Source of the DNA: Emiliania huxleyi CCMP1516
Taxonomy: Eukaryota
Length of the DNA: 63,936 bases
Assembly (NCBI RefSeq): GCF_000372725.1
Contig: NW_005201298.1
Location: 187,457-251,392 of the forward strand
Direction: 5' to 3'
Positions 9,646-50,199 of the stretch are shown piece after piece (the first letter of the stretch is position 1; each line of letters begins with the position of its first letter). A program made the position numbers and the translations under genes. The notes under the pieces were generated by a model that did no database searches, was not told the DNA's origin, and worked only from the letters and a program-made list of their open reading frames with translations.

Positions 9646-12600
9646 TCACTCAGATGTGGAAGCGGAGGCGGCGGCCGGCTCGCCCGCCTCGGGTAGCGCG
9701 TCGAGCACGGCGCGGAGCTCGTTGTACGCCTATCATCACTTAGCTCACCAGCTCACCAGCCCACCACCAACTAGCGAGCCGGCAGCGCGGGAGCTCCACG
9801 GCAAGCCTTCTCCATCGGGGGCCTCGCAGACGCGCTCGCCTGAGGGGCGGTGAGGCGGCGCGTGGATCGATGCCGCCGTCTCCCTCCCCGCCCGCGACAA
9901 GAGCGCTCGAGTCGTGCGCCAGACGCTCTCGTGACGCTCTCGTGACGCTCTCATGGGTGGGCGGGCTGCTCTAGCCCTCGCCTCGGACAGCCAGCGCGCA
10001 GTCTGCTTGAGCAGGAGCGGCCTCACCCGCCGAAAGTGCGCCGCGACCGCCGCCTGGTGAATGAATGGACTGATTAACGAGTTGACTGACTCATTGACCC
10101 GCCGAAAGTGCGCCGCGGCCGCCGCCTCGAAGCCGGCGGGCGGGCACTTGATCATGTCCCGCATCGCGTAGCGCATCGTCTGCAGGCGCAGGTCCTCGTT
10201 GTACTCGCGCGAGCGCTGCTCGCCCGCGGGGGTGTTCTCCTATGGGGGAGATAGGGGGGAGATATGGGGGCGATCTCGGTATGGGGGAGGTCTGCTCGCC
10301 CGCGGGAAGTTCTTCTCCTCCTCGGCGTAGCCCGGCTCGTTGAAGTACGGCTTCGGCACCTATCTCCCCCAGATCTCCCCGTGTCTCCCCAGCTCCCCCC
10401 AGCTCCCCCCACCGAGGCGCGCGGCGTCGGCACCATGATGATCGACTGGATCGAGACGAGCACCTGTGCTCACGGCTAGAGGTGTGAAGAGGCGCTGTTC
10501 ACACCTCCACCACGATGATCGACTGGATCGGGGCGAGCACTTGCAGCAGCGTCGAGCCGGAGCTGCTCGCCGAGGGCGGAGTCCACCCCTCGCCGTGCCA
10601 CGTGCCGAGCAGCGAGAGGCACACCTTGCCGTCCGAGTAGTGGTTCGGGTTCATTAGTCAATTCGTTAATTAGCTAATTAGCTCATGAACACCTTGCCGT
10701 CCGAGTAGAGGTTCGGGTTGAAGCGCACCATGCCGCCGCCCGTCGTCTGCAGGTTGACCAGCGGAGGCACGGAGGGGTACTCTGCCGGGATGAAGACCTA
10801 TTCGCCCATGTCGGTGGGGGCGTGAGGACCACGCCACTCCGGACGGGCGGGGCGGCTTCCGCGGGGGGGGGGGGGGGGGGAAGGGGGGGGTGGAAGGAAA
10901 CCTGGAACTCCAAAAGGCCCAACGCGTAGGGGGTCTCGTGCGTCGTGTCGAGCACCTCCCCAGGGCCCGAAAAGAGCACCTGGAGAGCGCACGCCCCTCC
11001 CTTGACTCCCTTGAAGGAATGAACTCGTTCACCTGAGTCGAACGGAGGGAATCAACTCGTTGAATCGAGCACCCCCCTTTTTAAGGGGGGGGATTCCCCC
11101 CCCATTTCCTCATGGAAATTATTGAAACGCGTTGAGGACGTCCATCCTCAAACCCCTTAATGAGTTAATTCATCAATGGACTTCATTGAAGCGCCTTCAG
11201 CACGTCCATCCTCAACCCAGCTCCATGCATTAACACTCCATTACTTACTTAATGCAACTTCATTGAAGCGCCTTCAGCACGTCCATCCGGCTCTCATCCT
11301 TGAGCACGACGATGCACGACTCGGCGCCTACTCTCGCCGCGTCTCGGCTCATCTCGGCCCGTCTCCCCCTCGACCTCTCCAGGCAAGCCGTGTCCGCGCC
11401 GCACGGCAAGTTGCCCTCGCCCGACAGCGACTTGCACTCCTGCAGCAGCCGCTTCACCTTGCTGCGCGCCGCGGCCTCAAAGGGCGACTGCGCGATGTTC
11501 TGGCGGTAGTAGTGGTTGTACCGCCCCGCGCCGTCCGCCATGCCAACTTCGTCGAACGAGAGCTCGGCCAGCTCCGCGCCGTACGCCTCGTTGACCGTTC
11601 GCAGCATCGCGGCGGCGCCGCCGTACTCCTCCTCGGCCGCCGCGGCGTCGGCGGCGGCGCGCTCGCTCACCAAAGAGGAAAGGCCGCCGCCCGGCCCGCC
11701 CTCGCCCCCGCCCCCGCCTCCCTGCTGCAGGCGGGGGAGGAGGCGGCGGAGGGCCTGCACCTCCAGCGGCGGGAAGTGGTCCTTGCACTTGTGCTCGAGG
11801 ATGTCGGCCGCCTGGAGAACCAGTTGACTGATCAACGAGTGGGCTACTCAACGATTGAACGCGTGCTCGAGGATGTTGGTCGCCGTGTGCAGGAGGGGCA
11901 CGTCGAGGTTGTCGCAAGCGGCGAGCGTCTGCACGAAGGCGGGCACGCGCGAGGCGGCGTGGAGCAGAAGCTGCGCCGTGTCGGAGAGCATCTTCTTCGG
12001 GTGCCTATGCAAAAAAGAAATGCCGCTAGCGAAAAAGAAATACGCCCGGGTGTCGGAGAGCATCTTCTTCGGGTGCCTATGCAAAAAAGAAATGCCGCTA
12101 GCGAAAAAGAAATACGGCCGGGTGTCGGAGAGCATCTTCTTCGGGTGCCTATGCAAAAAAGAAATGCCGCTCCCGAAAAAGAAATACGTGCGGGTGTCGG
12201 AGAGCATCTTCTTCGGGTGCCTATGCAAAAAAGAAATGCCGCTCCGGAAAAAGAAATACGTGCGGGTGTCGGAGAGCATCTTCTTCGGGTGCCTATGCAA
12301 AAAAGAAATGCCCCTCCGGAAAAAGAAATACGTGCGGGTGTCGGAGAGCCTCTTCTTCGGGTGCCTATGCAAAAAAGAAATGCCGCTCCGGAAAAAGAAA
12401 TACGGGCGGGTGTCGGAGAGCCTCTTCTTCGGGTGCCTATGCAAAAAAGAAATGCCGGTCGCGAAAAAGAAATGCGTGCGGGTGTCGGAGAGCATCTTCT
12501 TCGGGTGCCTATGCAAAAAAGAAATGCCGCTCCGGAAAAAGAAATACGAGCGCGTGTCGGAGAGCATCTTCTTCGGGTGCCTATGCAAAAAAGAAATGCC

Positions 12601-15600
12601 GCTCCCGAAAAAGAAATACGTGCGGGTGTCGGAGAGCATCTTCTTCGGGTGCCTATGCAAAAAAGAAATGCCGCTCCGGAAAAAGAAATACGGGCGGGTG
12701 TCGGAACGCATCTTCTTCGGGTGCCTATGCAAAAAAGAAATGCCGCTCCCGAAAAAGAAATACGGGCGGGTGTCGGAGAGCCTCTTCTTCGGGTGCCTAT
12801 GCAAAAAAGAAATGCCGCTCCGGAAAAAGAAATACGGCCGCGTGTCGGAGCGCATCTTCTTCGGGTGCCAGCCCAGCTTGTCGGGCTGGTCGACGCGCAA
12901 GCCCTCCCGCGCCTTGACGTCGCAGAGCTTGCGCAGGAACTCGACCAGCATCGCCGCGAGCTTGGAGGCGCGGGACGGGTGGGAGGCAAAGGCGGAGCAG
13001 ACGCCCGCCTCGTCGGTGAGGAAGAGGAGGGCCGCCAGCGACGAGTGGGCGAGCTGGAGGAAGCCCTTGGCGGTGCGGCGGCACTGCTCGAGGCGAGCCT
13101 CGCGCGCCTGCCTCTCCTTCCCGCTCAGCGCCGCCCACGCCGCCTCCTTCTCCTTGTCGGCGGCAGAGGCCGGCGGCGGGGCCGGCAGCGACGCCGCCTT
13201 GTCCCCGCGACGCACCGAGGCTGGCATCTCCTCCTGCCTCGTGTGCACGTCCGCCAGCCGGCCGAGCGCATCCGCCAGCAGAAAGACCGCCTCCTTGACC
13301 AGCGTCTCTGCAAACTCTCCAAACGCCGCGCCGCCGTCGCCGCCACCGCCCGGCTCGAGCGAGGCGGCCGCGGCGGCCTGCAGCGCCCTCCACGGCTGCG
13401 GCTGCTGCCACAGCGCGCGCAGCACGCTCATGATGCGGAAGCGGTCGCCGTTCTTGTCGGAGACGGCCGCCGCGTTTGTGTGCAGCCCGAGCTCGACGTA
13501 GAGGGAGAGCAGGGGCAGCTGCACCTCCGACGCCGCCTCGGCGTCGATCAGCCTGACAAGCGGCCCCGCCACGCCGCGCAGCCGCGAGCCGGCCAGCCGC
13601 GCCGCGTGCTCGTCCATCTGCACGAGCGTCTCGAGCAGCTCGGCGGCGGTGAAGCGGACGAAGGGCGAGGAGGCGAGGGCCTGGAGTTGCGGAGAGCTCG
13701 CCGCGTCAAGACGGGACAGCCAAGGGCGGGCGGTGTGGGCGCGTCCGATTTCTTGTTTCCTGCCGGCCGACCCAGCGGCACGCGCAGCGCGAGACGAGGG
13801 GCGCCGCAACCTCCGAAGCAACGAGAGCCTGGGGGTCCTTGCGCGCGAACAGCACGAGGAGCGCAAACACGTCGGTCAGCGTCGAGGCGGGCAGGGCGGC
13901 GCACGCGTCGGCCGCCGCCGCGCTGTCGGCGCAGAGATGCTCGAGCCACGCGCCTTTTCACAGCAGTGGGTGTGAAGAGACGCTGCTCACACCTCTCGCC
14001 AGAGATGCTCGAGCCCCGCGCCTTTTCACAGCAGTGGGTGTGAAGAGACGCTGCTCACACCTCTCGCCAGAGATGCTCGAGCCCCGCGCCGGCGAGGCCG
14101 CAGAAGCGGAGGAGGAGGGGCTGCAGCCGCGGGCCGTCGAGCAGCAGCCGGTACGCCAGCACCGCCGCCTGCGCCTTGCCCTGCCCAGCCTCCTTGATCG
14201 CGTGCAAGTGTGCGTCGAAGGCCGCCGCACCGCCCTCGGGAGGGGGGGCGCGCACCTTGCGAGATATGGCGGAGATGTGGGGGAGATATGGGAGATAGCC
14301 CTCGGGCGGAGGAGCGCGCACCTTGCGAGATATGGCGGAGATGTGGGGGGAGATATGGGAGATAGCCCTGGGGAGGAGGAGCGCGCACCTTGCGAGATAT
14401 GGCGGAGATGTGGGGGGAGATATGGGAGATAGCCCTGGGGAGGAGGAGCGCGCACCTTGCGAGATATGGCGGAGATGTGGGGGAGATATGGGAGATAGCC
14501 CTCGGGCGGAGGAGCGCGCACCTTGCGAGATATGGCGGAGATGTGGGGGGAGATATGGGAGATAGCCCTGGGGAGGAGGAGCGCGCACCTTGCGAGATAT
14601 GGCGGAGATGTGGGGGGAGATATGGGAGATAGCCCTGGGGCGGAGGAGCGCGCACCTTGCGCTGCAGCTCGAGGAGGATCCGCTCGCAGCGGCGCATGGC
14701 GGGGAGGCGGCCTATGAGAAAAGAAGAGCCGCTGGAGGAAAAGAAATACGGCCGGCTCCTCGCATGGCGGGGAGGACGCCTATGAGAAAAGAAGTACCGC
14801 TGGAAGAAAAGAAATACGGCCGGCTCCTCGCATGGCGGGGAGGACGCCTATGAGAAAAGAAGTACCGCTGCAAGAAAAGAAATACGGCCGGCTCCTCGCA
14901 TGGCGGGGAGGACGCCTATGAGAAAAGAAGTGCAGCTGGAAGAAAAGAAATACGGCCGGCTCCTCGCATGGCGGGGAGGACGCCGACGTGCAGCGCGCGC
15001 AGGCAGAGGAAGAAGCACTCCGTTACAAAGTGCAGCTCCGCCTAATAAACGAATGAACGAATTCACGACTCAGCTAATTCACTCCGTCACAAAGTGCAGC
15101 TCCGCCTCGGCGTCGCCGCCGCCCGCCGCGACCCCCTCCGCCGACCCACCAGCAGCGCCAGCCGGCGGTGGGGTGTTCGGGGGGGGAGCGGGCTCGGCGG
15201 CGGCGTCGCTGCTCGAGAGGAGGGAGAGCTTGATCGCCTGCGCGGAATGAAGGACTTGAATTGACGCATCCACTAGTTGATGCGTCAGAGGGAGAGCTTG
15301 ATCGGCCTGCGCCAGCTCGTCCGCCTCCTCGTTGGACTCCTCGAACCCTCCCGACCCACCCGCACCCGCTCCGCCGCCGCCAGAAGGGTCGCCGCCAGCT
15401 TCGGTGAGCCTGAGGCGCTCCTCGGCTTGCGGCCGGCGGCGGCGCGCCGACCACGCCGCCTCGCGCCGCCGCTCTCGCTCGTGCCACCTCGAGATATGGG
15501 GAGATATGGGGAGATATGGGGAGATATGGGGAGATATGGGGAGATATGGGCCGCTCTCGGTCGTGCCATCTCCAATCGAGCTCTTCATACTTGGTTCATT

Positions 15601-16631
15601 CGTTCGTCCGTTCACTCGTTCATTAAGACGCGCCACCTCCAATCGAGCCGCGCGAAGCCGTCATGCCCCTTGCCGTCGCGGAGAGCCGTCGGGGTGAGGA
15701 AGGGGCCGCACAGCTGCAGCAGCACCGCCGCCGCGCTAAGCAGCGCCCCGTCCGACGAGCAGCTCTGCCGCGCCTAATCAACTCATCAGCGGATATGAAC
15801 GAGTTGACCCATTCACCCGCCCGACGCGCCGCTCTGCCGCGCCCGCATCGCCTCTTGAGGGCTCTGCTGCTTCCCCCCGTCTGCGTTCGCGCCGTTGGCC
15901 GCGAGCACAGCGCCCAGCCAGCGCAGCGCGGCCGCCTTGGCTGCCGGGTCCTTGAAGAGCGCCGCCGTGAGGATGACCCGCTGCCTGCATGGACATGTCT
16001 AACAGACCAGTCACGGACCCTTGTGTAGAGGGGAGTAGGCGCCACGAGGTGGTCTGCTGCCGGCTCTGCAGCTGCCACACCTCCTCCCACCCGCCCTCGA
16101 GCACGGCGCGGTCCTAATTAAACGAATTCACTGATTCGCTGAGCACTGATCAACTAATTCACCCCGCCCGCCCTCGGGCACGGCGCGCTCCTCGTGATGC
16201 CACCCTCCCCCGCCAGGGGCAGGCGCCGCCATCCCGTACCTTGACCAAGGAATCCGTCCACCGTTAGTACGCTGAGTGGCGAATTCGTTTCTCCGGCGCT
16301 GCCATCCCGCGCACCTTACTCAATCAGTTCAGAACCAGTCAGCCATCACCAGCCTGACCCCGGGGCCGGGCAGGCGCCAACCCCGCGCACCCCGTCAGCC
16401 CAGCCGGCGAGGGGCTGAGCAGGCGCAGCACTCCGAGCCCCTCTGCCTCCCGGCCAGTCCACTCGCCAGAGCGGAGCCTGCCGCTCTCCTAGAGGCCAGG
16501 TCAGGCTCCCGTCTCCACACACACACACGAGGTGGTGGGGCAAGGGCCAGGCTGCTCCCTCGCGACTCCACGTCTGACGACAGGAGCCGGCACGGCATTC
16601 GAAGTGCAAGGCCCGGTGCGCGTGGGTGAGC

Positions 16632-16715
<84 letters not shown>

Positions 16716-17961
16716 AGTGCGTGTGTGTGTGTGTGAATTGTGTGTGCCGCGTGCTGTGTGTGTGTGTGTGCTGTGTGAGTCTGTCCGCTCTCCTCGTCAA
16801 GCCGCCGCACGAGCACCGCGCGGGCGGCAACGCCGTGCGGAAGCGGCTTGAGCGGCCCGCCACCCGCCGCCGCGCCGAGGCCGAGAAGCAGCTCCGCCTC
16901 TGCCAGCACCGCCCGCCACCCGCCGCCGCCGCCGCCCGAGGAGGAGGAGGAGGAAGGGGAGAAAGAGACGTCGACCACAGCGCCGCCCGAGTACGGGTCG
17001 AGCCGGCGCAGCAACGACTCGAGTGCCGGGCCGTATACGCTCTCCTGCTCCGCCAGCGAGAGCGACGTGGCGACGGCGGTCACAAACGGCGCCGCCGCCG
17101 CCGAAGCCTTGAGCAAGCCGACGAGGTCGCTCTCTCCAGAGTCGCCGTAGAGGGAGAGCCCGTCCTCCTCAGCGGCCCCCGAGAGGAGGGCCTGCCTCGC
17201 GTGGTGCAGCGCGACCTCGCACCCGAACGCCGCCGCCGCCGCCGCGCTCGCCTGCTGCAGCTGCGGCTGCTGACGCTCCCAGCAGTGTATTATATTATAT
17301 TATATTATATTATATTATATTATATTATATTCGCCTGCTGCAGCTGCGGCTGCTGACGCTCCCAGCAGTGCTGCAGGTAGCGCAGGCCGCGCTCGTCCCC
17401 GTGCGCGTACGACTGGGTTCGGTCCCGCACCTGAGGCAGGGGGAGATGGGGGGAGATAGGACGGAGATACGGCACCTGAGGGGCGAAGGAAGGCCGCGGA
17501 CGTGTGCGTCGCGGACGTGCCACCCGGCCGGGCCGCACCCTCCTCCCGCTCACTGCCCCCCCCCCCCCACTACCCCTCGCGCTCACCGCCCGGTGCAGCG
17601 CGTCGGCGCCGTCTGCCGGCGCGGCCGACAGAGCAAAGCCGGCCTGGAGGGCGGCGAGCCCCGCGGCGTCGAGGCCGAGCCGCGGCGCGGGACGCGCCTC
17701 GAGTTTCGGGCGCTTGGCGGTCGGCCGCGCCATCGTCGGAGGGGGCGCCATCGCCATCGCCATGTCTTCGTCCTCGTCCATGTCGGTCGACGCGCCGTCC
17801 GTCTCGCCGTCCGTCCCGCCGCCCTCCTCCATCATGTAAAAGTACTCGGAGGCGGCCGCCTCAATGTTGCCACCCGCATTCTGGAGCAGCGTCCCGGCCT
17901 GGCCGGCGTCAATCCCGAGCATGCCCACGAGCGTAGCCACAGAGGCCGCATACTCGTCCAT
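9646..17961 (-). CDS. Multi-exon ubiquitin-system protein: N-terminal UBA-like domain, Ufd2/UBE4 core-like region, C-terminal BIRC6-type UBC (E2) domain
   Basis: UBA-like: [33 protein letters not shown]. Ufd2-core-like: [30 protein letters not shown] and [35 protein letters not shown]6-like E2 with catalytic Cys: [69 protein letters not shown]. Confidence 0.8.
11978..12869 (-). repeat. 72-bp tandem array (12 units plus a partial), intronic
   Basis: Units start at 11978 + 72n up to 12842. On the minus strand each unit reads GCACCCGAAGAAG...TTTTTTGCATAG. Confidence 0.95.
14256..14655 (-). repeat. 66-67-bp tandem array (6 units), intronic
   Basis: Minus-strand unit GTGCGCGCTCCTCC...ATATCTCGCAAG. 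Confidence 0.9.
14712..14985 (-). repeat. About 68-bp tandem array (4 units), intronic
   Basis: Minus-strand unit GCGTCCTCCCCGCCATGCG...TTTTCTCATAG. Confidence 0.9.
16633..16775. repeat. (GT)n microsatellite
   Basis: Directly visible. Confidence 0.95.
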
Positions 17962-18268
17962 CACTGCGGTCGGGCTGCGGGACGTGGAGCGCTGAGGAGT
18001 GGCGCTGTACACGGCGTGCGGAAAAGAATGTTGCCCTGGCACACCACGGGAGCCGCCTAAGCGACTCCTGCGAGGGCGGCGAGGCACTTAGCTGTCAGTG
18101 TCGTGCGAAAAAGAATCATGGTTACTGGCGAACATCCTCGGGTTCACCTGACTGTCTCCATGGAACTCCCACAAGGCTCTCCTGCAGAGCGCCAGACAGC
18201 CTAGCGTACAGGGTGCTGTTTTCCGTCAATATAAAAAGAAAAACATTCTGCACCTGTCAACGCGGAGC

Positions 18269-18838
18269 ATGCAGATGGTTGGCGAGGGCGAGGTCACGGT
18301 GGTGCTTCTCCTCCTCGCGGCGGCGGCGCTGCCGGCACTCTTGTACGTGCGGCGTCGGCAGGAGCAGCAGTTTGAGGCCAAGCTGCAGTCGATGAGAAGC
18401 AAGCAAGCCGAGGCGAAGCTGCAGGCGGTGGAGGAGAAGGTCGCCGCGGTGGAGGCGTCTGCAGCTTCGCCGCCGCCGGCACCGTCAGCGAGGGCGCGCC
18501 GCGGGCGGGCCGCCGAGGCGCGGCCGCCGCTGCTCAAGGGCGCAAAGTGCTGGTACGAGGCGGACCGGTCCAGCGACCCGGTGCTGGTGGAGATCATGCA
18601 GGTCCACGCGGACGTGGACGGGGCCTTCTACACGATCAAGCTGCCCAGCGGCGGCGAGAAGCAGACGACGCGCGGAAAGCTCGATTCGCTCGAGGAGCGC
18701 GCTGAGGCCGCGGCGGCGGCGCTGCTCGCCGAGGAGGCGAAGGAGAGCAAGAAGGGCGGGCGCGGCAAGGGCGGGTCGGGCCGCGAGAAGCCGAAGCCCG
18801 CCCGCAAGCAGAACAGCGGGCGCGAAAAGCGCAAGTGA
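18269..18838 (+). CDS. Hypothetical protein: N-terminal transmembrane helix, coiled coil, small beta domain, basic tail
   Basis: Intact 189-aa ORF with coding-like GC3 bias and a hydrophobic N-terminus (VVLLLLAAAALPALLY). Confidence 0.65.
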   Translation: MQMVGEGEVTVVLLLLAAAALPALLYVRRRQEQQFEAKLQSMRSKQAEAKLQAVEEKVAAVEASAASPPPAPSARARRGRAAEARPPLLKGAKCWYEADRSSDPVLVEIMQVHADVDGAFYTIKLPSGGEKQTTRGKLDSLEERAEAAAAALLAEEAKESKKGGRGKGGSGREKPKPARKQNSGREKRK

Positions 18839-19227
18839 GGCCGGCGGTGTGCACACCGTTTGCGCTCTAGTCTACTGTCATAGGGAGTCGTGCGATCCGC
18901 GCGCGCGTGTACGTGTGCCCGTTTTGCCGCACGTACGTCAAAAAGGATGCGACATTGACACAGTGTCGAAATGAGACCACGGTAAGATCGCGCCACTTGC
19001 CTGTGTGGCTCTCTCCTCCGCGCTGACGTGTGACGACGACTGCGTTGTGCGACTCGGAGGCGACTCGCTCGCGTCTCGCGCGCGGGAGAGGTGTGTACAT
19101 GCGTGCTCTCTCGACGGGGCCGCCGCAGTCGCACGAGCGCGCTCGCGCCCCGCTCATTTCGTAGTGCGCCGGTGCAATCTTCGCTGGCTCCGTCCCACAT
19201 CGCTGGTCCCTCGTCGACAGCACGCAA

Positions 19228-19470
19228 CTACATGGCCGGATCTGGACTCGCGGGGAAGAAGTAGTGCTGGCAGGCTTCGTAGAGTTCCGCTCCGCGTCCG
19301 CTCCGCTGCATGTACTTCAGAACCATCACGGAAACAACGATGAGGATAGTAGGCATCCAGCTCTCCACTCGGACATCCGCGTTGCCCTTTCCACTATCCG
19401 CAGGCGGCGCGATGGCTGTGTCGGCGTCGGCTGTGTCGGCGGCAGTACGCTTCGTCGTCTTCTTTGCCAT
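19228..19470 (-). CDS. Small hypothetical membrane protein
   Basis: 80-aa ORF with one hydrophobic segment (ILIVVSVMVL). Confidence 0.35.
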   Translation of the reverse strand: MAKKTTKRTAADTADADTAIAPPADSGKGNADVRVESWMPTILIVVSVMVLKYMQRSGRGAELYEACQHYFFPASPDPAM

Positions 19471-19612
19471 TGCCTGCAGTATGATACCAGGAGATGAGAG
19501 GGTGCGCGCAGTGGCGCTCGAGGACGCCCTACGCCGATGCTTGGCAGCGCGTAGTGTCGAAACTCCGAGACTCCGACGTCCAATGTCAAATTCACTCTTT
19601 GTTTAGAGAGCG

Positions 19613-20542
19613 ATGGCGCGGAACTTGTGGCTGCCAATAACAGGCGGGTCGGTGGAGGAGATCATCTCGGCGCACGCTGACCCGCTCGCTCTCCTGGAGA
19701 GTGGTGCGGTGCCTGCTCTCGTCGTGCGCCGTGCGCTAGCAGCACCTGCGCTGACGACAGTCTTGTCGCGGCTGCAAGGGCAGCCGTGGCAGAGGAGGAC
19801 AGCCTCCTATAAGACGTTGGGCGTCGATTTGGGTGCCTATTTGGGCCGCTACCCGCACCCTCTAGATTTGCTGCGGGCCGAAGTCCACTCCACTTGCACC
19901 AAAACGACCGACCTTCAGAGGCATCACGCCAACGCCACTGCCGCCTTTGATCTCGCGGCGAAGAGAGCAGGCCTGTACGCCCCGGTGGAGGCGCTGCACC
20001 GCACTCTGCGTGCGCTCTTTGCCGCGAGGTCTGCGGCTGCTGAGGCCGACTTCCTCCCGGCTCCGGGCGTCTTTCGCATGCACCGCCCGGGCAACCGCTT
20101 CGCGCCGCACGCAGACACCATCCACGCTGCAGAGTGGAGCAGTGCGTGCGGAGGAAAGCGGCCGAGGCGAGGCGTGGCGCCAAACTTCCGCCCTCTCCGC
20201 CGCCTTCGGCACCAGCTCTCTGCCCTCGTGTCGCTGCAGCAGCCCAGATCCGGGGGAGAGCTGCGGCTCTTTAGCACCAACTGGGAGGCCCTCATGTCAA
20301 CTTGCAACCAGCGCGGCGTGGCCTACGACGTGGGAATCGCCTTCCCTCACTGGCCGCGCGCGGCAGCCATGCTGCACCCGCGCGAGTACAACCTCACCGT
20401 CACGCCGGGCGACGTCTTCATCTTCAACAGCAATCGCGTGCACGAGGTGCTGCCGGTGGTGGGTCAGCAGCCGCGCCTCGTGCTCGGGTCCTTTGTGGGG
20501 TACTCGCACTCGCCGCGTGAGGAGATGAGGATGTGGTCTTGA
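19613..20542 (+). CDS. 2-oxoglutarate/Fe(II)-dependent oxygenase superfamily protein
   Basis: HxD (PHAD), GGELRL, PGDVFIFNSNRVHEV (distal His) and a downstream Arg (PRLV). Intronless, 309 aa. Confidence 0.75.
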   Translation: MARNLWLPITGGSVEEIISAHADPLALLESGAVPALVVRRALAAPALTTVLSRLQGQPWQRRTASYKTLGVDLGAYLGRYPHPLDLLRAEVHSTCTKTTDLQRHHANATAAFDLAAKRAGLYAPVEALHRTLRALFAARSAAAEADFLPAPGVFRMHRPGNRFAPHADTIHAAEWSSACGGKRPRRGVAPNFRPLRRLRHQLSALVSLQQPRSGGELRLFSTNWEALMSTCNQRGVAYDVGIAFPHWPRAAAMLHPREYNLTVTPGDVFIFNSNRVHEVLPVVGQQPRLVLGSFVGYSHSPREEMRMWS

Positions 20543-22629
20543 GGACCTCGTGCTCGGGTCCTTTGTGGGGTACTCGCACTCGCCGCGTGAGGAGATGAGG
20601 ATGTGTCTTGAGGACCGAGAGGGAGGAGCCATCGAGAGAGGTCGGTGACGATGCTGCCGGTGTCGGCATTCCCAGCGGATGGAGACCGTGGCTGTTGCGC
20701 TGGTCAAAGCGAAGGCCGCCTCCTCGAGGACTGTTGGGGACGCCGATCATCTCTCCAGCTCCGAACTCGAGAATTGTGCGCATGTCGGATGGAGCCCTTG
20801 CCGCCGCTTTCTCCACCCTTCCCTGCCTGCCCCTTTCCATATCTCGACGACCTCCACCTCCCCAACGCCGGTGGGCAGGCATCAACATCAAGTTCGGCAG
20901 CTCGACCTTGAAGCTTGATCGCTTCTGATGCTGATGGCAACGGCAAGCCTCTCCTCTCTGAGGAGCTAAAGAAGCACCTGAAGGACGAGCTCACCAGATT
21001 GATAGACAGACCAATGGTAGCCGAGCCGTGTACCGCTGGGCTCGTCGAGCGCCTACTGAGGGTCGCGCGTTTGCGCCCCGCGGACCGGCGCCGGCGGCCG
21101 CCGCGTGCCCGCGGTGCCCCGTGATCGGTGTGTGGCAGCGGCGCGGCGCTGCGTGTGTGACCATCGTCAGCGGCGCCGCCAGCCGTCATGTGCACTACCG
21201 GCACGATGTGCCTTGTGCGATGCGGCGCATGATTGCTCTGTAGGCATCCTCGCGCTTTCGCTTCCGGCGCATCGCCTTCGTCTCCTTGCTGCGCAGCTGG
21301 GTGTAGTTCGGGCCCGCCTCCGCCACGCTGTCCAGCAGCTGGGCGGCGCTCGCCATCTCGACCGCGTCGTCCTCCGGCGGAAGCTCCGCGTTGCCCGCGG
21401 CCGCCTCCCGAGCGCGCTCGTCGCGCATCCGCTCGTGGTGGGCCTGCCGACGCGCCACGCCGGCGCCCGCGTGCCTCGCCGCCGCGTCCGGCGACGGCAT
21501 CGATGCTGTCCGCCCGAGCGTGACTCGCCACTCCACGACCTCCACGACCCTCCACGACCCTCCACGACCCACTCGCTCTGCCCCAAACCTAAATCGTCTC
21601 ACTAGTTACATACATACTTTAGCGACACACAGCCATGTGGGACGCGCGTCGTCCGTCGAGTACCTCTAGCCTAAAGTAGCCTATATAGAGCCTAGACGCT
21701 AGAGCCGTACTACCCAGCCTTCGCATGCGATCGTGCATGCACATGCACATGTCCATGTATGTGCATGCACATGTGCATGCAGAGTGCTGCAGTCTTTTTT
21801 TACGCGTGTGGCGCGTGAGCAGAGACCAGAGTGGTGTTGTGTGAGACGCGTGTGTGAGAGGCGGGCGGTTGACGTTGAGTGCTGCGCGTGCGTGTTCTGC
21901 GTCTACAGAAACACCAATGCATATTCTCCGCTCCGACCACACACCCTCGCCGACGACTACAACCTCGCAAAAGAGTCACATAGCGGTGTGACATCTGGCT
22001 GAAGCCACGCCACGGCTTTGGCGTTTGGGAACCACTCCTTCTCTCCCGTGTACGCAAACTGGATTAGAACGTGGCCCGTTTGCTGCTCCGCCACCGCGCC
22101 AGCGTAGCAGAAGGATGGGTCGCCACCCGCTTCGACGCTCACCCACTCTGTCTCCGGCACGGAGACCAGCCGCCCGACCAAGCTAGCATGCTGCATCGGC
22201 GCAGTGCGGCGCGACGCGCTCGCAACAACGAACGTCTGGCCCGGCTGTACGCCAACTGGGACCACCGTGGTGAACATCTGCTCGCCCGATGTGGACGGGA
22301 AGGTCGCGGACTGGCCGGGACTCATGCCCGCAGGTGGAGTGCGTGGTGTTAGGGTAGCGAGGTTGGTTGGGCGCGGCGAGAGTCAAAGCGAGGCAAAAAG
22401 AATTTTCTTTCGAAATTTCAGATGGCAAGAGATTTTTTCTTTTTTTGTTTCTCTCTACGACGGGCACGGGACCGGCCCTGCCGCACCGCGCCAGGATGGG
22501 TCGCCTGACAAGGCACTGTGGCACGCCGGTCAGTGCTGGTTCGTTGGAGCAGCTGCGCTGCCTCGCGAGCTTCCAGATATTCTATCGATATGAAGGGCGC
22601 ACAAAGGCGCTCGACGTCGCTCCATCCGA

Positions 22630-23670
22630 GGACTCTGTCAGGACTCTGTCAGGACTCCGTCAGGACTCTGTCAGGACTCCGTCAGGACTCCGCCAGGACA
22701 ACCACTGTCCCCGCTGTGAATAGAGCCCTTAGCTAGAGAGTAGGGAGGGGTGTACAGTCGAGTTACTCCCGAGGGCAGGGACGGCCCTCCACTGAGGGAA
22801 AGGGCGCACGGGGACGGTATCGACCCAGCCACGCAGCTCTTTCCTCGCGTACAGCCAACGAGTTTGCTGGTCCACAGGCAGGCCAGGCCGTGAGCGTGGG
22901 CCGGTCAGGCCTGATCCTGCGGTGAGCACTGGAGGGCTATGCGGCTCGCTCCGTCAGCCGACTTGCGCTGTCGAGCGGTCGAGCGCTTCGGGTTGGACCC
23001 GCGGGAGGGTCCCTGCGCGGCTGACATGGCCAGCCAAGCCGTGTGCGCTGCCGTGGGTGCTGCCGTGGGTGCTGCTGTGGGCGCTGCCGTGGGCGCTGCC
23101 GTGGGCGCTGCCTCGGTCAGCAGTCGGTCAGCCGCCGTCCGCTGCTCGGCGCTGGCCTGCAGGTTGCCGGTGGCAAATCGGGGGCGCGCGGGCCATGGAC
23201 GTCGTGGCCGAGCTTTGCTGCCTATGCACGTTGCCGGCTGTAACGTTGCCTGCACCATGGCCGCGCCTCTCTTGCTTGTGCGCTTTCATGGTCGGCCGAG
23301 TGGCGCGAGACCCAGCGTGATTTCTTTTGTCTGTCAGGACTCTAAGTTCTGTCAGGACTCTCAAGTTTCTGTCAGGACTCTCAAGTTTGCTTGTCAGGAC
23401 TCTCAAGTTTGCGTCAGGACTGCCCCATCAGGACGATTCCGCAGAGGGCGCGCACGGTCGAAAGGGGGGCTGGGCGTCTATCATTCACTGCTGGGGGGGA
23501 GGGGAAGGAGGGTTGCAGTGAAGGAAGGTGGAAGTCTCTTCGGAGGCACTTGTGAGCACTGTGAAGACCGTGCGCCGTCAGGACCCCGCCAGGACTCTGT
23601 CAGGACTCTGTCAGGACTCTGTCAGGACTATGTCAGGACTCTGTCAGGACTCTGTCAGGACTGTCAGGAC
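22630..23670. repeat. Three clusters of an 11-mer (CTCTGTCAGGA)n at 22630-22698, 23330-23420 and 23578-23670
   Basis: Directly visible. Probably subterminal repeats of a transposon (inference). Confidence 0.8.
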
Positions 23671-25454
23671 AGTTGCGGGAGCTCCACAAACCAGGTTAAA
23701 GCTTCTGGGCGGTCGTTAAGGTTCGCTCCCCGCACACCGGCCCCGGAATAAGTTACATCATAGTGTTTGAGTCGCCGCTGCTGAATGCTGACGGAGCGGA
23801 GGCAGCGGAGGGGCCAGCGGCGCCGCTGCCTGCGGAGGCGGGTGCGCCCGCCGCGCCAGCCACCGCCGCGTCCGAGCCACCGCCGCGTCCGGCGCCTGCC
23901 CCTGAGGCGCCATTCACCCACGACGGCCACTTTGATTTTCCGCCACTCCGCAGCCCGCTACATGTACATGTACATGTGCACTCACGCCCCAAGAGTCGAC
24001 TCGGCTCGACGGCTTTAACCATCATGGGGCACGGACCTTCTGCGACAACCCAGCCCCCTAGTGGGCCTGCGACACATCTTTCGCCGCCAACTCTGCTGGG
24101 TCAGTGCAACGTGCACGGTTTCCTTTGCCTCCAAAATGTGTTTCACCATGGAATGCAACAGTTGGGCCTACCCCTTGGCAAAACGTCCTTGAGCCCTTGT
24201 GTAATGGGGCTGAGGCAGTGCCCTTGTGTAATGGGACATGTTCTTCTGGAAAGGAGCTTGCCATCTACCAAGGTCTGCCTATTCACCCCGGGCATCAGTG
24301 GCTTCAGAGTGCCAACAGACAATTCTATCCAACGGCGTTCCACCGACGGCGATACTCAACATGCCTTACCCGCCTGCTGCCTCTGCCTCTCTCAGCCATG
24401 CGACCCCTCCGCCAATGCACACCTCGAACGCGACGTTAGATCCCGCTGCGAGTGGCAACATTCGCGGCGATGAGGCCTCTGCCAGCACTGATCATCACAA
24501 CTCGTCTGTTACGCTACACGTTTTTGCCCTGTGCAGGTGAAGAGCGGACCGGTGAGGGAATGACCTTTTGGCGCGGCGCTGCTATGTGCCTGCGCGCTCA
24601 TGGCGCCTTCAGGGGTGCGCCTGAGGCGTGTAGACTGCGGCCCGGGGCGCCGCGATAGCGCGGCGCCGACGATTGTGTCGCTCACTGTCACACCAACGAC
24701 ACGGTCACAGTGTGTGTGCAGTGCGTCAATTCCGGCGACCGTGACGCCGTCGGCGCTCGTCAAAAACATCTACTGTGGAGCTCTAAGTCTGATGGCGTGT
24801 TGTACTAGTGGTGCTGCACTAGGCGGCCCGTTTTTAGCAAAAAGAAGATACCACATCGCGTGTGGCCGTCGAAAAACCGCATGTTCGCCCGTTTTGGACC
24901 CCTTCGTACGGCTCCAAAAACCGCTCCTTAACGACGACTACGCGGCCCGGCGGTCGATCTGCGCCTTCTCAGCGGTGGTGTGGATATGGGCGGTACGTGC
25001 GGACTGCGTGGTGCTGCGACAGTTTGACGAGTGCGACTCCCAGCGTCGACTTTGCGGACCCCACGGAGCCTCTGCTGCTCCGGGGGGGGGGGGGGGTCTG
25101 CAGACCACCCGGCCGAACTTCAGAGACAGTAGCGGTGCTCCTCAAATACCGCTCAAACGCCCACGATGCTGTCGAGGGGACATATGCTGATGATCCTGGC
25201 CCAATTGGTTCGCTCAGAAAGCTTCTGGGCGGTCGTTAAGGTTCGCTCCCCGCACACCGGCCCCGTCACGCCGGGATCGTGTCCCTCACTACTTGCCCAA
25301 CCATTCGTACAGGAGAGTAGACAGATGATGACGACACGCACGAGCGACACACAGACACAAACAAGCTCACAAGACACACAGCCAGCGGGCTGCCACACAT
25401 CCTGAGTGGGCGTAACCCCGTATTCGAAAAAAGAAAAGACCTTCCCGCCAAACC

Positions 25455-27054
25455 ATGGCGTCTCACAACGGACTTCAGTGCTGGATGTGCCTTGGCGGGG
25501 CGACGCACGCCTGCCCGCGCTGCGACGTCGCATACGGGACCGCCGTCTGCCTGACGTGCTTTGAGAAGGCGGCCCGCCAGGCCGACACGAAGCGCAAGCT
25601 TGGCCGCCTACGGCACGACGCGCTCGACTGGACCGGCGCGCCGCGAGGAGAGCGGCCGCTGCGGCCGGTCGACATGGCGACGACGCCAGCTTCGCCGTGC
25701 CAGTGCTGCACGCGCGAGTGCCTGCAGCCGCAGCTGGTGCTGCTTCCGGCGCCCGCGCCGCCGCTCGCTGCAGGCCCCGGCGGCCAGCAGGCACCGCCGG
25801 TGCCGGTGCGGGTGCCCAAACCACACCGCAGATTCTGAGTCGCGCGCGGCTGTCTCTCTCTCACGCTCTTCGCCCTTCGCCCGCCAGGTGCCGGCTGTGG
25901 AGGCGGCGGCGGCGACGGCCGCGCCAGCGACGCCGGTCGAGCTCGCGCCGCTGCCTGCGGAGGCTGCCTCGCCGCCGGCAGGCGGTGCGGCGGCGCCCTC
26001 TGCGGGCAGTGCGTCATGGATCACGTTCCTCGGGACGGCAAGCGCGTGGGTTGGGGGGGCCCTGCTCGAGGCAGCGGCGGAGGGCTTCCGCCGAGCAAAG
26101 CGGCGGCGATGCGATGGGGAGCAGAGGGAGGGGAGGGGGGGGGAGGAGGAGGAGGAGGCGCCGCGTGTCGGCGCGAGCGAGCGGGCGCGCCTCGGCGGCC
26201 CCTCCGCCGACGAGGCGGGCGGCGGTGGCGCGCCGCCGGCCGCGCCGGCCGCGCAGGCCGCCGTGCGCACCATCACCGCTGCAGGCGCCGAGGCAGTTCG
26301 GCAGGCAGACAGGGAGGGGCTTACGCTGGCCACGGGCTGCGGCAACACCGGCTACAAAGGCGTCTGCTACCGCCCGAAGGAGCGAGGCAGCAAGAAGTAC
26401 AGGCTGTCGGTGTTTGTTGGCGGCAAGATGCTCTCCCTCGGCTACTTCACCACCCCCGAGGAGGCGGCGCTCTTCTACGCCCGCAGGGAGGCGGGCAGGG
26501 ACATGGTTGCGCCGGCGAGCCAGAGGATGTACTTGCGCCGAGCTGGCTCGCTCGAGGCGACCACCGGCGAGGCGACCACCGGAGCGGGCGCGGCACCCAC
26601 CGGAGGGGCACCCGCCGGCACGGCGATGCCCATTGAGGACCTCGCCGGTGCGGTGGCCCGCGGGGCGGCCGGCGCGGCGGCCACCGGAGCCGCCCGCATG
26701 ATGGCCCCGCCGCGGACCGCGTCGTCAGAGGGCGTTGTGCTGATCCCAGCCGTCCGCAAGGACAGCACGACGGGCTACAAGAACGTGATCTTCCACCGCG
26801 GCAGTAAGCAGTTCGAGGCGAAGGTGCGACCTGGCGGCAAGAGTGTCTTCCTCGGCTCCTTCGACACCGCCGAAGAGGCGGCCACCGCCTACGCTCGCTC
26901 AGAGTACGGCCGTGCCGACGCCGCCAAGCTGCTGCAGCCCCGCGCTGGCACGGGGACGGCCAGCGCGGCGCCTGCTGGTGCGGGTGCGGCGACCGGCGCG
27001 GGTGCCGCGCCCGCCGCTCGCCAGGCGATTGCTAACTTCGCCGCCGCGCTCTAG
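25455..27054 (+). CDS. Protein with an N-terminal Cys-rich (zinc-finger-like) region and two AP2/ERF-like DNA-binding domains
   Basis: Exon 1 has CWMC..CPRC..CLTC. Intron about 25800-25887. AP2-like segments: TGYKGV..LGYFTTPEEAALFYAR and TGYKNV..FLGSFDTAEEAATAYAR. Confidence 0.75.
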
Positions 27055-27309
27055 ACGAGCACCGGCCGGTGCTGGCGTGGAAGACGGCGGCCATCCGCGC
27101 GTATCTAGTGTGCGTGTCCTAAGTGTTGGTGTCTGCGCAACCTCCTGGAGCCTAGCAGAAGGCGGCCGGCGGTGGGGCGAGGGAAGGGGGGGGGGGGGGG
27201 GTATGGTCCCGTCGGCGGGAGGCTGGGTCTGTCAGCAGGATTCGATTACCATACGTACCATACCAAAGGAAAAGTGGCAATTTTTCCGTGCTGCCCCACA
27301 ACAAAAAAA

Positions 27310-27663
27310 GCGCGCGCAGCGCGCTACATGGCGCCGCAGGCGCCTTGCGTGGCGCGCAGCGCCGCCGCAGGCGGCGGACAGCAGGTGCGCGAAATTAAAC
27401 GCATTTTCGGTTCCGCACTTTTGCCACTAACATCAAAATCCGGTGCAATATGTCGGGCGGATGAATGATTGATTGTGATTGATTCGACTAATACATGCCC
27501 GCCATGCGCAGGCCAGCGCCGCGCTGTGACAAGCATAGAGACGCCCCGACCTCTCTGAACTAAGCCAGATTACTGCGAACGAACGCGCAGCGGGGCAGCC
27601 AACGGCCGTAGACGGGTCACAAATTGCCCGGGACGGCTGACGTAGAGCCACATGCACATTAAG
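27310..27663 (+). repeat. Dispersed repeat family A, copy 1
   Basis: High similarity to 31969-32355, e.g. GGCGGCGGACAGCAGGTGCGC.AAATTAAACG and GACCTCTCTGAACTAAGCCAGATTACTGCGAACGAACGCG. Confidence 0.85.
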
Positions 27664-28567
27664 CAGCAACAGCCGTAGAGGATTGTTAAACGGGTCGGCG
27701 CTCGCGGACGAGGCACAGCGCGCCATTGGTGCGGCGTCGCGCGACCGCGAGGGACCGCGGGGGGGGGCTAGTGGGATGGGGGCTCTAAGGGGAAGGGAGC
27801 GGGGGGCGCCCAGTAGGGCGCCGGCGCCCCAGCGTAGAGGGCCGTGTGTAGCAGGGCGTCGCCACAGCGCTGCAGCTGTACTGCGACTCACCTTCACCTA
27901 CGCTCGGGAGCCGCGCCATCGTCATCGCCCTCGACTACTCCAACGCCTACTCGACGAGCCTGCTCGACTCGTCGGCACGGGCGACCCTGATGCTTCCCAT
28001 TTTTTCGTTTCTTTTGAGAGCAGGACGCCGGGTTTGTCTTGTATGTGCGTGTCGGGCCAGGGTGTGTGCGCGGGGCGGCGAGGGGCAGGGGCGTGCAGGG
28101 CGGGGGCCCAACGTCGGGCGGCTTGCGGGGCCGACAAAATCGAGGGGGGGAAGAGGAGAGCGGATGGGCGGTCGGCGTTGGGGTAGCAGTGACAGGGCGT
28201 ACGGGGTAGCCGTCACTCTCCTGCCTCAAAAGGGCGGGGCTGTCCCGGAAAGTGAGAAACGCCGGGCAGCGTGGCGCACAACTGAACCCTCCCACACGTG
28301 CTTGTGCTTCCTCCTTCGCTGTCACATCCCCTCCTCTCTTTCCCGCCTGGCTGGGCGGGGCGGCGGGCGGGCGCGCGGTGCGGTGCGGCGTGTGTGTGCG
28401 AGTGACTGCTACCAGGGACCACGGGCTTGTATTATTAACAACGAAGGCGCTCTCAAAAAAAAAAGCCGCCCAAAAAGTCCGAACCCGGCGGTCCTCAGGA
28501 CGGCACGCAGCAGGAAGGCGGGGGCAATTCTTTTTTCCAGTGGCAGTCTCCGGCGAGCGCTCTGACC

Positions 28568-30586
28568 ATGGTCCCCAAGGTAGCAGCGCGCGAGGAACCG
28601 CTTCTCCCCGCCTCGGAGGGCTACGTGGAGTACCCAGCGGCGCGGCGGCAGGCGCTGCCGCGCTGGATCACCGTCGCCGGCGCCGGCATGGGCGTCGCCA
28701 CGCTCCTCCTCCTCATCTCGGCAGCGTCCCAGCACAGCGCTCCGACGTCTTCTTCGTCGGTCATGCCGTCGGCGGCCGCGGCCGGCGCGGCGTCGGGGGC
28801 GGTGCTCTCGGGCGTCCTGGACCTGCCGGCGCAGCAGCAGCCGCAGACGCACCTCCTCGCGGCGCAGTCGGCGCGGGAGGAGCCGGCGGCTGCGCGGAAG
28901 AAGGGCGTGCACGCGGTCCGGTTGAGCAAGGTTGAGCGGACGGCGCGGCAGCACGCGCTGGAGCTGAACGACGAGACCTCGCAGGGGCTGTTTGCCCTCG
29001 GCGGAGCCACCACCAACCTCATCGCGGCGGATGGCGACGCGGGGACGGCGACAGTTGAGCTGAAGGACTTCCAAGATGCGCAGTACTACGGCGAGATTTC
29101 GATTGGCACTCCGCCCCAGACCTTCTCCGTCGTCTTCGACACCGGGTCGGCAAACCTCTGGGTGCCCTCGTCGCGCTGCAAGGGCTTCAACCTCGCGTGC
29201 TTCCTCCACCGCCGCTACGCAAGCGACAAGTCGGACACCTTTGTGCGCGATGGCACGCCCTTCGCAATCAAGTACGGGTCCGGCTCGATGTCCGGCTTCA
29301 TCTCGCACGACAAGATCAGCGTCGGGTCGCTCACTCTCAAGAACGCCTCCTTCGCCGAGGCCGTCACCGAGCCCGGCGCCGCGTTTGTTCTCTCAAAGTT
29401 CGACGGCATCCTCGGCCTCGCATACCCGTCGCTCTCGGTCCACTGCCTCACGCCCGCCATACAGCACTGTGAGGAGACGCTGTTCACACCCGCAGCTGTG
29501 AGCAGGTCAACGGCCTTACGCCCGCCATACAGCACTGTGAGGAGACGCTGTTCACACCCGCAGCTGTGAGCAGGTCAACGGCCTCACGCCGGTGATGCAG
29601 GAGCTGATCAAGCAAGGCCAGCCCATACCTCCCCATATCTCCCCATATCTCCCCATATCTCCCCATATCTCCCCATATCTCCCCATATCTCCCCATATCT
29701 CCCCAGATCTCAAGCAAGGCCAGCCCGCGACGAGCTAACTACTACTCAACAGCTAATCGTTACTAATGAACGAAGTCATCACCAGGCCAGCTCGCGGCGC
29801 CGCTCTTCTCCTTTTGGATGAGCAAGGACCCGAAGCAGACGCCGGGCGGCATGCTCTTCCTGGGCGGCGTCGACGACTCCTACTACACCGGCGACCTGCA
29901 CTGCCTCCCCATACCTCCCCATGTCCCCCATATCTCCCCCATATCTCCCCATATCTCCCGCACAGGCGACCTCCACTACCTCCCGATATCTCCCCATATC
30001 TCCCCATATCTCCCCATATCTCCCCGTATCTCCCGCACAGGCGACCTCCACTACCTCCCCATCACACGCAAGGGCTACTGGCAGTTCGACCTCGACGCAG
30101 TGTCGGTCGGCGGAAGCGACGTCCTCACAAAGGGCTCCGCCATCGCCGACACGGGCACCTCGCTCGTCGTCGGCCACGATGGGTGTGAACAGCGTCTCTT
30201 CACACCTCTGGCTGTGAACAGGCACCTCGCTCATCGTCGGCCCCACCGAGCAGCTGAAGAAGGTGATTGGCAAGCTGGGCCTCGCGGACGCGCAGGCGGG
30301 GATGGGCGGGCAGTACTCGATTCCGTGCGACAAGAAGGGGGAGCTGCCCACGCTCTCGTTCACCTTGGGCGGCAAGACCTTTAGCCTCGAGTCGGCCGAG
30401 TACGTGCTGGAGATGGAGCTGCTCGGCAAGAAGATGTGCACCCTCGGGCTGATGCCGATGGACGTACCAAAGCCGGCTGGCCCGCTCTGGATCCTCGGCG
30501 ACGTCTTCCTCTCAAAGTACTTCTCGGTCTACGACTTTGGCAACGACCGCGTCGGCTTCGCCGAGGCGGTGGCGACGGCGCCGTAA
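28568..30586 (+). CDS. Pepsin-family (A1, cathepsin D-like) aspartic protease with an N-terminal signal-anchor, multi-exon
   Basis: [41 protein letters not shown], second catalytic IADTGTS (split by intron 30155-30221) and WILGDVFL. Confidence 0.95.
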
Positions 30587-31968: not shown

Positions 31969-32355
31969 CGCGCGCGCAGCGCGCGTAGGCGGCGCGCAGC
32001 GCCGCCGCAGGCGGCGGACAGCAGGTGCGCAAAATTAAACGCCATTTTCGGTTCCGCGGTTTTGCCACTAACATCAAATGTCGGGATGATTGATTGATTC
32101 GACTACATGCCCGCCTTTGCGCAGGCCAGCGCCGCGCTGTGATACGCATAGAGACGACCCGACCTCTCTGAACTAAGCCAGATTACTGCGAACGAACGCG
32201 TAGCACGAACGCGTAGCGCGCGGCGGGGAAGTCAACGGGGCAGCCGGCCGGGCGGCCGGCCGCGCCCGAGGCGCGAGGGCGTAGACGGGTCACAAATTGC
32301 CCGGGACGGCTGGTCACTTGGTCTCTGACGTAGGCCACGCACATGCACATTAAGC
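31969..32355 (+). repeat. Dispersed repeat family A, copy 2
   Basis: See 27310-27663. Confidence 0.85.
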
Positions 32356-32699
32356 GGTGACATGACCTGATTGTTAAGAGCCGGTCCGCGAAATTAAATG
32401 CCATTCTCCAGGCAGGTATCCATTTTAGCACTATCTTCGAAATCCCGGCCGGTACTGTTTTAAGAATGAGTGAAAGAGGTTGTTGGTATTGTCTCTGAAA
32501 GAAATGGGCTCGGCTGCGCCTGGGTTCGGAGCTTCAACGCCGGCCATTGCGCCGAATAAAACGGCGGCAAGTGCCGGACAGTGCACAGGGGCTTCGGCGA
32601 GAGCGTCGATGCCTTGAGTTGCCCGCTATGGCCGGGGGCTGCACCGCCGTGTGCATCAAGAAGAACTTGCACATGTGGAAACTGTGTATATGCCGAAAT

Positions 32700-45507: not shown

Positions 45508-50199
<4,692 letters not shown>

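What the first reader, a model, noticed from the sequence alone, without database searches (positions are those of the whole stretch)
10464..30221. A ~40-nt hairpin filler shared by unrelated introns (introner-like family 1)
In transcript orientation: GGTGTGAACAGCGCCTCTTCACACCTCTAGCCGTGAGCACAG (10464-10505, minus); GGTGTGAGCAGCGTCTCTTCACACCCACTGCTGTGAAAAG (twice, about 13952-14062, minus); GGTGTGAACAGCGTCTCTTCACACCTCTGGCTGTGAACAG (30182-30221, plus); and CTGTGAGGAGACGCTGTTCACACCCGCAGCTGTGAGCAG (twice, 29467-29573), where the hairpin core is inverted. The core is a GGTGTGAA...TTCACACC stem and the tail supplies the acceptor AG. The same module in four introns of two genes, each beside an exon duplication, looks like a mobile or templated intron-generating insert.
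Basis: partly seen in the sequence, partly recalled or inferred. Interest (0 to 1): 0.8.

Follow-up and report, generated by a model that had tools for sequence, protein, structure and literature searches.

The report
Introns built from exon-duplication scars
In the alga Emiliania huxleyi, many unrelated genes carry short introns made of a roughly 25-base copy of the next exon followed by one shared 40-base piece that ends in the splice acceptor, likely scars of DNA-break repair that copied the end of an existing intron, which would explain how this alga makes new introns and why most of them start with GC.

Summary
The host is Emiliania huxleyi. Six module copies lie in four introns (0 expected by chance). 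RNA contigs from two studies splice out two of them. A metagenome scan gave 121 loci. In 74 of 93 usable loci the intron starts with a copy of the next exon (control 53 of 8556). The unit is mostly 64-73 nt, with donors GC 38, GT 22, GA 7, close to the species' published donor mix. The module has no terminal inverted repeats and no autonomous partner was seen. It has a fixed 3' end, a ragged microhomology-joined 5' end, and sometimes flank captured from another gene's intron. The long duplication is not specific to this family: telomere-type, microsatellite and AT-rich fillers share it at the same spacing. Best reading: staggered-break repair duplicates the target and fills the gap with the 3' end of an existing intron; splicing selects the survivors. 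Whether the template is RNA or DNA is open, and no empty allele of this family was found. E. huxleyi introners are catalogued, with mechanism mostly unknown.

The parts
10464..10540 (-). Intron A (77 nt, GT-AG): 33-nt imperfect copy of the next exon plus module
   Evidence: frame restored on removal; present in orthologous locus L040
10464..10505 (-). Module copy A (42 nt), forward core, ends in the acceptor AG
10431..10463 (-). Exonic copy of the duplication for intron A
13954..14089 (-). Intron B: two tandem 68-nt units (GC donor), each a 22-nt exon copy, a short extension and the module
   Evidence: single unit in L057
13932..13953 (-). Exonic copy of the duplication for intron B
29438..29573 (+). 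Intron C: two tandem 68-nt units (GT donor), module with reversed core; unit 2 starts exon-like, as slippage between the repeats would give
   Evidence: skipped in RNA contigs X9 and X8, one unit only in X1
29574..29590 (+). Exonic copy of the duplication for intron C
30155..30221 (+). Intron D (67 nt, GC-AG): 21-nt exon copy, 6 nt, 40-nt module; interrupts the DTGTS motif of the protease (catalytic role recalled)
   Evidence: skipped in RNA contigs X9 and X8
30182..30221 (+). Module copy D, the commonest form (11-nt motif forward, reversed, forward)
   Evidence: very high summed contig depth
30222..30242 (+). Exonic copy of the duplication for intron D
28568..30586 (+). Host gene 1: cathepsin D-like aspartic protease, 498 aa, 4 introns, all with duplications
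   Evidence: 495 of 498 residues identical to P0123
29617..29785 (+). Neighbouring compound intron (two units with other fillers), precisely absent in genomic locus L045 and in a contig of X2
12871..13680 (-). Exon of host gene 2 (Ufd2P core, ubiquitin elongating factor); the gene carries introns A and B
   Evidence: PF10408 E 1e-22

Best explanation
These are spliced introns, each made of a long direct duplication of exon sequence plus a shared 40-nt 3' module, and they likely arise when a staggered DNA break is filled in and the gap is patched with a copy of the 3' end of an existing intron. SHOWN: the anatomy; splicing of two window introns; the module in about 100 unrelated loci; a fixed 3' end and ragged 5' end; 5' junction microhomology; 5' flank shared between unrelated loci; the same duplication around unrelated fillers. 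INFERRED: (1) two nicks about 15-40 nt apart are filled in, giving the repeat; (2) a repair polymerase or reverse transcriptase copies about 40-55 nt from an intron-resident copy, starting at its acceptor AG, and rejoins by microhomology; the template may be excised intron RNA or genomic DNA (about even odds); (3) insertions in exons survive only if the repeat supplies a G(C/T/A) donor, an AG acceptor exists and the unit reaches about 62-78 nt, which yields the sense bias, the narrow length and the GC donors; (4) each new intron is a template for the next, and the repeats let units expand in tandem or be lost precisely.
For: Duplication in 74 of 93 loci versus 53 of 8556 control pairs; unit 64-73 nt in 65 of 74; donors GC 38, GT 22, GA 7, other 7. 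Published E. huxleyi donors are GC 56%, GT 40%, GA 4% (PMC4028052). 5' junction microhomology of 4-6 nt in 6 of 21 loci where the repeat reaches the core; null mean 0.39, maximum 4 in 5000. 5' flank shared between unrelated loci: 8 pairs scoring 9 or more among 103 loci; null mean 0.44, maximum 3. L048 and L055 carry a 5' part matching the exon start of the exostosin gene L021 at 18 and 19 of 20; control maximum 16. 5'-shortened modules have longer repeats and the same 67-nt unit (L028, L016). Probable antisense copies take both splice sites from the repeat (L012; L062). In other fillers the junction lies at the start, middle or end of the repeat. Telomere-type fillers have the same 22-30 nt repeats (L028, L067, L094), which points to a general repair route; telomerase-type insertions at breaks, some with target duplications, are described in PMC2246262. 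Repeat spacing is 65-79 nt in 81 of 149 non-family pairs and 71 of 86 family pairs. Unit number varies between alleles and one neighbouring intron is precisely absent.
Against: No empty allele of a family-1 site was found (85 queries, only self-tandem hits), so gain is inferred. 14 of 93 loci have no own duplication even with gaps allowed; two of them look like whole-intron copies without one. 3' junction microhomology does not exceed a permutation null (P 0.10). The narrow unit length (SD of repeat plus extension 3.7 nt versus 5.4 for the repeat alone) needs selection for length, which was not tested. No enzyme was identified. The scan pattern required a whole core, so shortened copies are under-sampled. 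Gene direction for the antisense cases rests on reading frame and neighbouring units; the codon model miscalled at least one known-sense locus (L040). The non-family pairs are not RNA-validated and include noise.
Confidence: 0.58

Rival explanations
1. A dedicated retroelement system (target-primed reverse transcription by a non-LTR element that nicks the strands far apart) inserts the module as a SINE-like passenger.
For: Fixed 3' end, variable 5' end with microhomology and captured 5' flank are the recalled signs of target-primed insertion; long target duplications are recalled for CRE-clade elements.
Against: No A-rich or repeat tail in the module; no partner seen in 180 kb; telomere-type and microsatellite fillers have the same repeat. 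It overlaps with the best explanation if a reverse transcriptase uses intron RNA in trans.
Confidence: 0.2
2. Whole introns of about 68 nt insert without duplication (introner-type reverse splicing or ligation). The 5' part is later overwritten in register by the next exon's sequence, through conversion with cDNA or an intronless allele.
For: Conserved total length; identity falls from about 93% to about 45% towards the core; L048 and L055 look like whole foreign introns with no own repeat.
Against: Probable antisense copies and other fillers have repeats that straddle or precede the junction. Extension length does not track repeat divergence (rho 0.04, n 70). Telomere-type fillers have no donor intron.
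Confidence: 0.12
3. The introns are older, and the module spreads by ectopic gene conversion or by secondary insertion into existing introns, creating few new ones.
For: Compound introns with different fillers at one junction (29617-29785; L061; L062); no empty allele found.
Against: Repeats are near-perfect (35 of 70 with no mismatch in the first 15 nt), which suggests recent origin at most sites, although tandem slippage could refresh them.
Confidence: 0.07
4. A MITE-type DNA-transposon introner.
For: Short, high-copy, intron-forming, with an internal inverted repeat.
Against: Termini are not inverted repeats; the duplication is 14-45 nt and variable against 3-9 bp for described introners (PMC9860276); the 5' boundary is ragged.
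Confidence: 0.03

Closest known systems
Introners / introner-like elements (PMC9860276; PMC12130899), including E. huxleyi families in their supplements
   Same: Sequence-similar short introns at unrelated sites; 'co-opt 5 prime, carry 3 prime' splice-site logic. The 2022 tables list five E. huxleyi families (653 elements): three average 37 nt at 54-57% GC, two average 70 nt. The module read from its internal GT at position 4 is 37 nt at 54% mean GC, so those families are probably this module mis-delimited (inferred; their sequences were not seen).
   Different: They record TSD '?' or 'N' (2022), and class Unknown or LTR with 2-4 bp TSDs, one family noted as '10bp terminal direct repeats' (2025). 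Here the duplication is 14-45 nt, forms the 5' 40% of the intron, and only the 3' part is inherited.
[quoted passage not shown]
   Same: Direct repeats flank a filler at a staggered break.
   Different: There the repeats are short and five events were counted as unambiguous. Here the repeats are long, the anatomy is pervasive, and the filler recurs in about 100 sampled loci and is traceable to other introns.
Tandem genomic duplication of AG|GT (reviewed in PMC3443670)
   Same: Splice sites come from duplicated exon sequence; matches the antisense cases.
   Different: Only part of the intron is duplicated exon; a foreign filler makes up the rest and usually supplies the acceptor.
Interstitial telomeric insertions at breaks (PMC2246262)
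   Same: Templated filler, microhomology, some target duplications; telomere-type fillers occur here too.
   Different: Those are not described as introns in the passages seen, and duplications were 4.6-16% of cases.
Hypoxylaceae symmetrical sister (stw)introns (PMC8469720)
   Same: Proposed spread of intron RNA through break repair; internal symmetry.
   Different: Whole introns move and no flanking duplications occur.

Membership tests
Introner (broad: intron-generating repeated element) | Similar sequence in introns of unrelated genes | tested here: met
   109 clusters from 121 loci; 15 loci with different Pfam hits, sense only
Introner (broad: intron-generating repeated element) | Spliced out of mRNA | tested here: met
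   2 of 2 tested introns skipped in RNA contigs of two studies; A and B not tested with RNA
Introner (broad: intron-generating repeated element) | Similarity extends to both ends of the intron | tested here: not met
   The 5' 19-44 nt is locus-specific exon copy in 74 of 93 loci
Introner (broad: intron-generating repeated element) | Empty site in related alleles or species | tested here: inconclusive
   None in 85 queries against 180 kb; a neighbouring non-family intron is absent in L045 and X2
MITE / TIR DNA transposon | Terminal inverted repeats | tested here: not met
   The ends are direct copies of one 11-nt motif; the inverted pair is internal
MITE / TIR DNA transposon | Short, fixed-length target duplication | tested here: not met
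   14-45 nt, median 24
SINE-like retroposon (target-primed) | Fixed 3' end, 5' truncation with microhomology, variable target duplication | tested here: met
SINE-like retroposon (target-primed) | A-rich or repeat tail, structured-RNA head | tested here: not met
   No tail; no Rfam match
SINE-like retroposon (target-primed) | Partner LINE sharing the 3' end | not testable with these tools
   No whole genome held; none seen in the window or loci
Break-repair intron gain | Direct repeats around a templated filler, with junction microhomology | tested here: met
   (5' junction only; 3' junction P 0.10)
Break-repair intron gain | Dependence on end-joining enzymes | not testable with these tools
   Needs experiments

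The most novel reading that the evidence does not exclude
E. huxleyi runs a transposon-free, self-renewing intron cycle. Excised intron RNA is reverse-transcribed from its acceptor end into staggered breaks, so each new intron is a fresh exon duplication plus the tail of an older intron. Most introns of the genome arose this way, tails compete as replicators, the repeats allow precise loss, and the species' GC-AG majority is a by-product.
Probability: 0.3. Interest if true: 0.92.

Novelty: new variant of a known kind. Interest (0 to 1): 0.78.

Why it matters
The source of new spliceosomal introns is a long-standing question, and break-repair gain rests on few cases. Here the signature looks pervasive, young and partly traceable from donor to recipient, in a species with many sequenced strains, so insertion, expansion and precise loss can be measured directly. 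It offers a mechanistic reason for the unusual GC-donor majority, which PMC4028052 attributed to genome GC content. It also warns that ab initio gene models and introner catalogues may cut these introns at the wrong place, because the intron start mimics the next exon.

Tried and rejected
No whole genome is held, so there was no genome-wide count. Summed contig depth over the module bin is about 1,500-1,800 times the neighbouring exon bin in X1 and X2; the tool says this is not a copy number, so it is used only as 'probably thousands'. Viral contigs: 0 hits for two patterns. Rfam: 0 matches in 29400-30300. Hairpin as the functional feature: rejected as unproven (module z -1.0 and -1.3; only whole intron A folds strongly, z -4.7). 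Reverse transcriptase stalling at the branch point: disfavoured, because the only branch-like motif I recognise (recalled consensus) lies mid-module while copies extend 20 nt or more beyond it. 3' junction microhomology: not significant. Age-dependent erosion of the repeat: not seen. The negative correlations of repeat and filler length are partly built in by definition and are not used as evidence. Earlier scan notes: nothing. The 2013 genome paper is not held; I recall that it mentions 10-11 bp intronic repeats and GC donors, and it or its supplement may describe more. RNA and allele evidence for introns A and B from sequencing runs remains open.

Full report
OBSERVATION. They end four introns: A 10464-10540(-), B 13954-14089(-) (two 68-nt units), C 29438-29573(+) (two units, reversed core) and D 30155-30221(+). 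Each unit begins with an imperfect 17-33 nt copy of the next exon, whose first two bases are the donor. Removing the four introns of the plus-strand gene gives a 498-aa aspartic protease; keeping C or D gives a premature stop. That protein is 495 of 498 identical to an Emiliania huxleyi protein. RNA contigs of X9 and X8 (two studies) skip C and D exactly. A and B restore the reading frame of a minus-strand gene with a Ufd2P core domain; they were not checked with RNA.

WIDER SAMPLE. No whole genome is held. Of 130 core matches, 119 carry the acceptor tail: 108 with forward core and 11 with reversed core. They collapse to 109 clusters; one cluster wrongly merged two loci (L048/L075 with L055/L101). 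Sixteen clusters were dropped: 10 failed the tail rule and the rest lay near a contig end. In 74 of the remaining 93, the intron start matches the next exon at 12 or more of 15 bases (control 53 of 8556). Five more pass a gapped test and 14 do not. The unit is 64-73 nt in 65 of 74. Donors are GC 38, GT 22, GA 7, other 7. Identity to the exon is about 93% over the first 18 bases and about 45% next to the core. The repeat has median 24 nt and the extension before the core median 3 nt. Downstream segments hit Pfam in 15 of 89 sense and 0 of 91 antisense translations. A codon model called 44 sense, 5 antisense and 25 ambiguous of 74, with at least one known miscall.

THE MODULE. It is an 11-nt motif three times, forward, reversed, forward, with a variable 4-nt spacer. 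The ends are direct, not inverted. Variants include a 29-nt periodic form (L020) and a fully alternating palindromic form (L098). The reversed core is most simply a template switch between the arms (inferred). The module folds no better than shuffles, has no Rfam match and was not found in viral contigs. No longer element with the same ends appeared in 180 kb.

CLUES TO MECHANISM. (1) The 3' end is fixed and the 5' end ragged; 5'-shortened modules have longer repeats and the same unit length. (2) Where the repeat reaches the core, 6 of 21 loci show 4-6 nt of microhomology (null mean 0.39, maximum 4); the 3' junction shows no significant excess (P 0.10). (3) Unrelated loci share 5' flank: 8 pairs among 103 loci against a null mean of 0.44. 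L048 and L055 carry the exon-derived start of an exostosin-gene intron like that of L021, at 18 and 19 of 20 (control maximum 16). The module is therefore likely copied from intron-resident copies. (4) Probable antisense copies (L012, L062) take both splice sites from the repeat. In other fillers the junction falls at the start, middle or end of the repeat, as a target duplication predicts. (5) The anatomy is not family-specific. 10-11 nt repeat, AT-rich, microsatellite and telomere-type fillers have the same repeats, with spacing 65-79 nt in 81 of 149 pairs (not RNA-validated, some noise). (6) Units are unstable: B and C have single-unit alleles, and the compound intron 29617-29785 is precisely absent from genomic locus L045 and from a contig of X2.

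AGAINST. No empty allele of a family-1 site was found (85 queries). Fourteen loci lack an own repeat. The narrow length needs untested selection. No enzyme is known. RNA versus DNA template is unresolved.

BEST EXPLANATION AND RIVALS. Staggered-break repair with a filler copied from the 3' end of an existing intron, filtered by splicing (0.58). Rivals: a SINE-like passenger of a non-LTR element (0.2); whole-intron insertion with later overwriting of the 5' part (0.12); spread within older introns (0.07); a MITE (0.03).

WHAT IS KNOWN. PMC9860276 (passages; supplement rows; the file was cut when stored) gives introner duplications of 3-9 bp and lists five E. huxleyi families with TSD '?' or 'N'. 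PMC12130899 (passages; supplement rows; file 13 searched; file 14 not searched) lists three families per assembly, class Unknown or LTR, one noted '10bp terminal direct repeats'. Their 37-nt families match the module read from its internal GT in length and GC, but I saw no sequences. PMC4028052 (passages) reports the GC-donor majority and attributes it to GC content. PMC3443670, PMC2246262 and PMC8469720, all seen as passages, give the break-repair, telomeric-insertion and intron-RNA precedents. Searches listed no paper whose title or abstract describes long exon duplications as the start of E. huxleyi introns; most listed papers were seen as listings only. The 2013 genome paper is not held, and it or unseen supplements may bear on this. 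The CRE-clade, target-primed and branch-point comparisons are recalled.

VERDICT. A real feature, RNA-supported for two introns and widespread. It works like an introner but fails the end-to-end similarity and terminal-repeat tests. It is best seen as one filler family of a general duplication-plus-filler route of intron gain. New variant of a known kind; interest 0.78.

Noticed in passing
L028:5-95, L067:400-492, L094:158-267; window 29-140: Telomere-type hexamer fillers flanked by 22-30 nt duplications; in L094 and at the window start the filler ends in an AG.
   Followed up: partly
window 17248-17370: Perfect 40-nt duplication around a pure (TATTA)n filler, probably a very young event.
   Followed up: no
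window 29617-29785: Compound intron of two different fillers, precisely absent in genomic locus L045 and in a contig of X2: presence/absence polymorphism.
   Followed up: partly
window 11978-12869, 14232-14661, 14693-14984, 46610-47066, 48140-48627: Tandem arrays of 60-88 nt units (up to 12.4 copies), each exon copy plus filler: expanded introns of other filler families.
   Followed up: partly
window about 9650-16200 (-): The host gene has a Ufd2P core domain followed by what looks like a ubiquitin-conjugating E2 domain (motif recalled from the translation): a possible E4-E2 fusion.
   Followed up: no
window about 27505-27680 and 32120-32370: A dispersed direct repeat of roughly 150-250 bp on either side of the protease gene region (seen).
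   Followed up: no
window 32700-33750: Purine-skewed array of 24-150 nt repeats, perhaps encoding a Gly/Asp/Glu-rich protein.
   Followed up: no
L012 (matches at 701-723 and 788-810): Two module copies back to back in opposite orientation, sharing spacer and a 7-nt 5' extension: possible local copying.
   Followed up: partly
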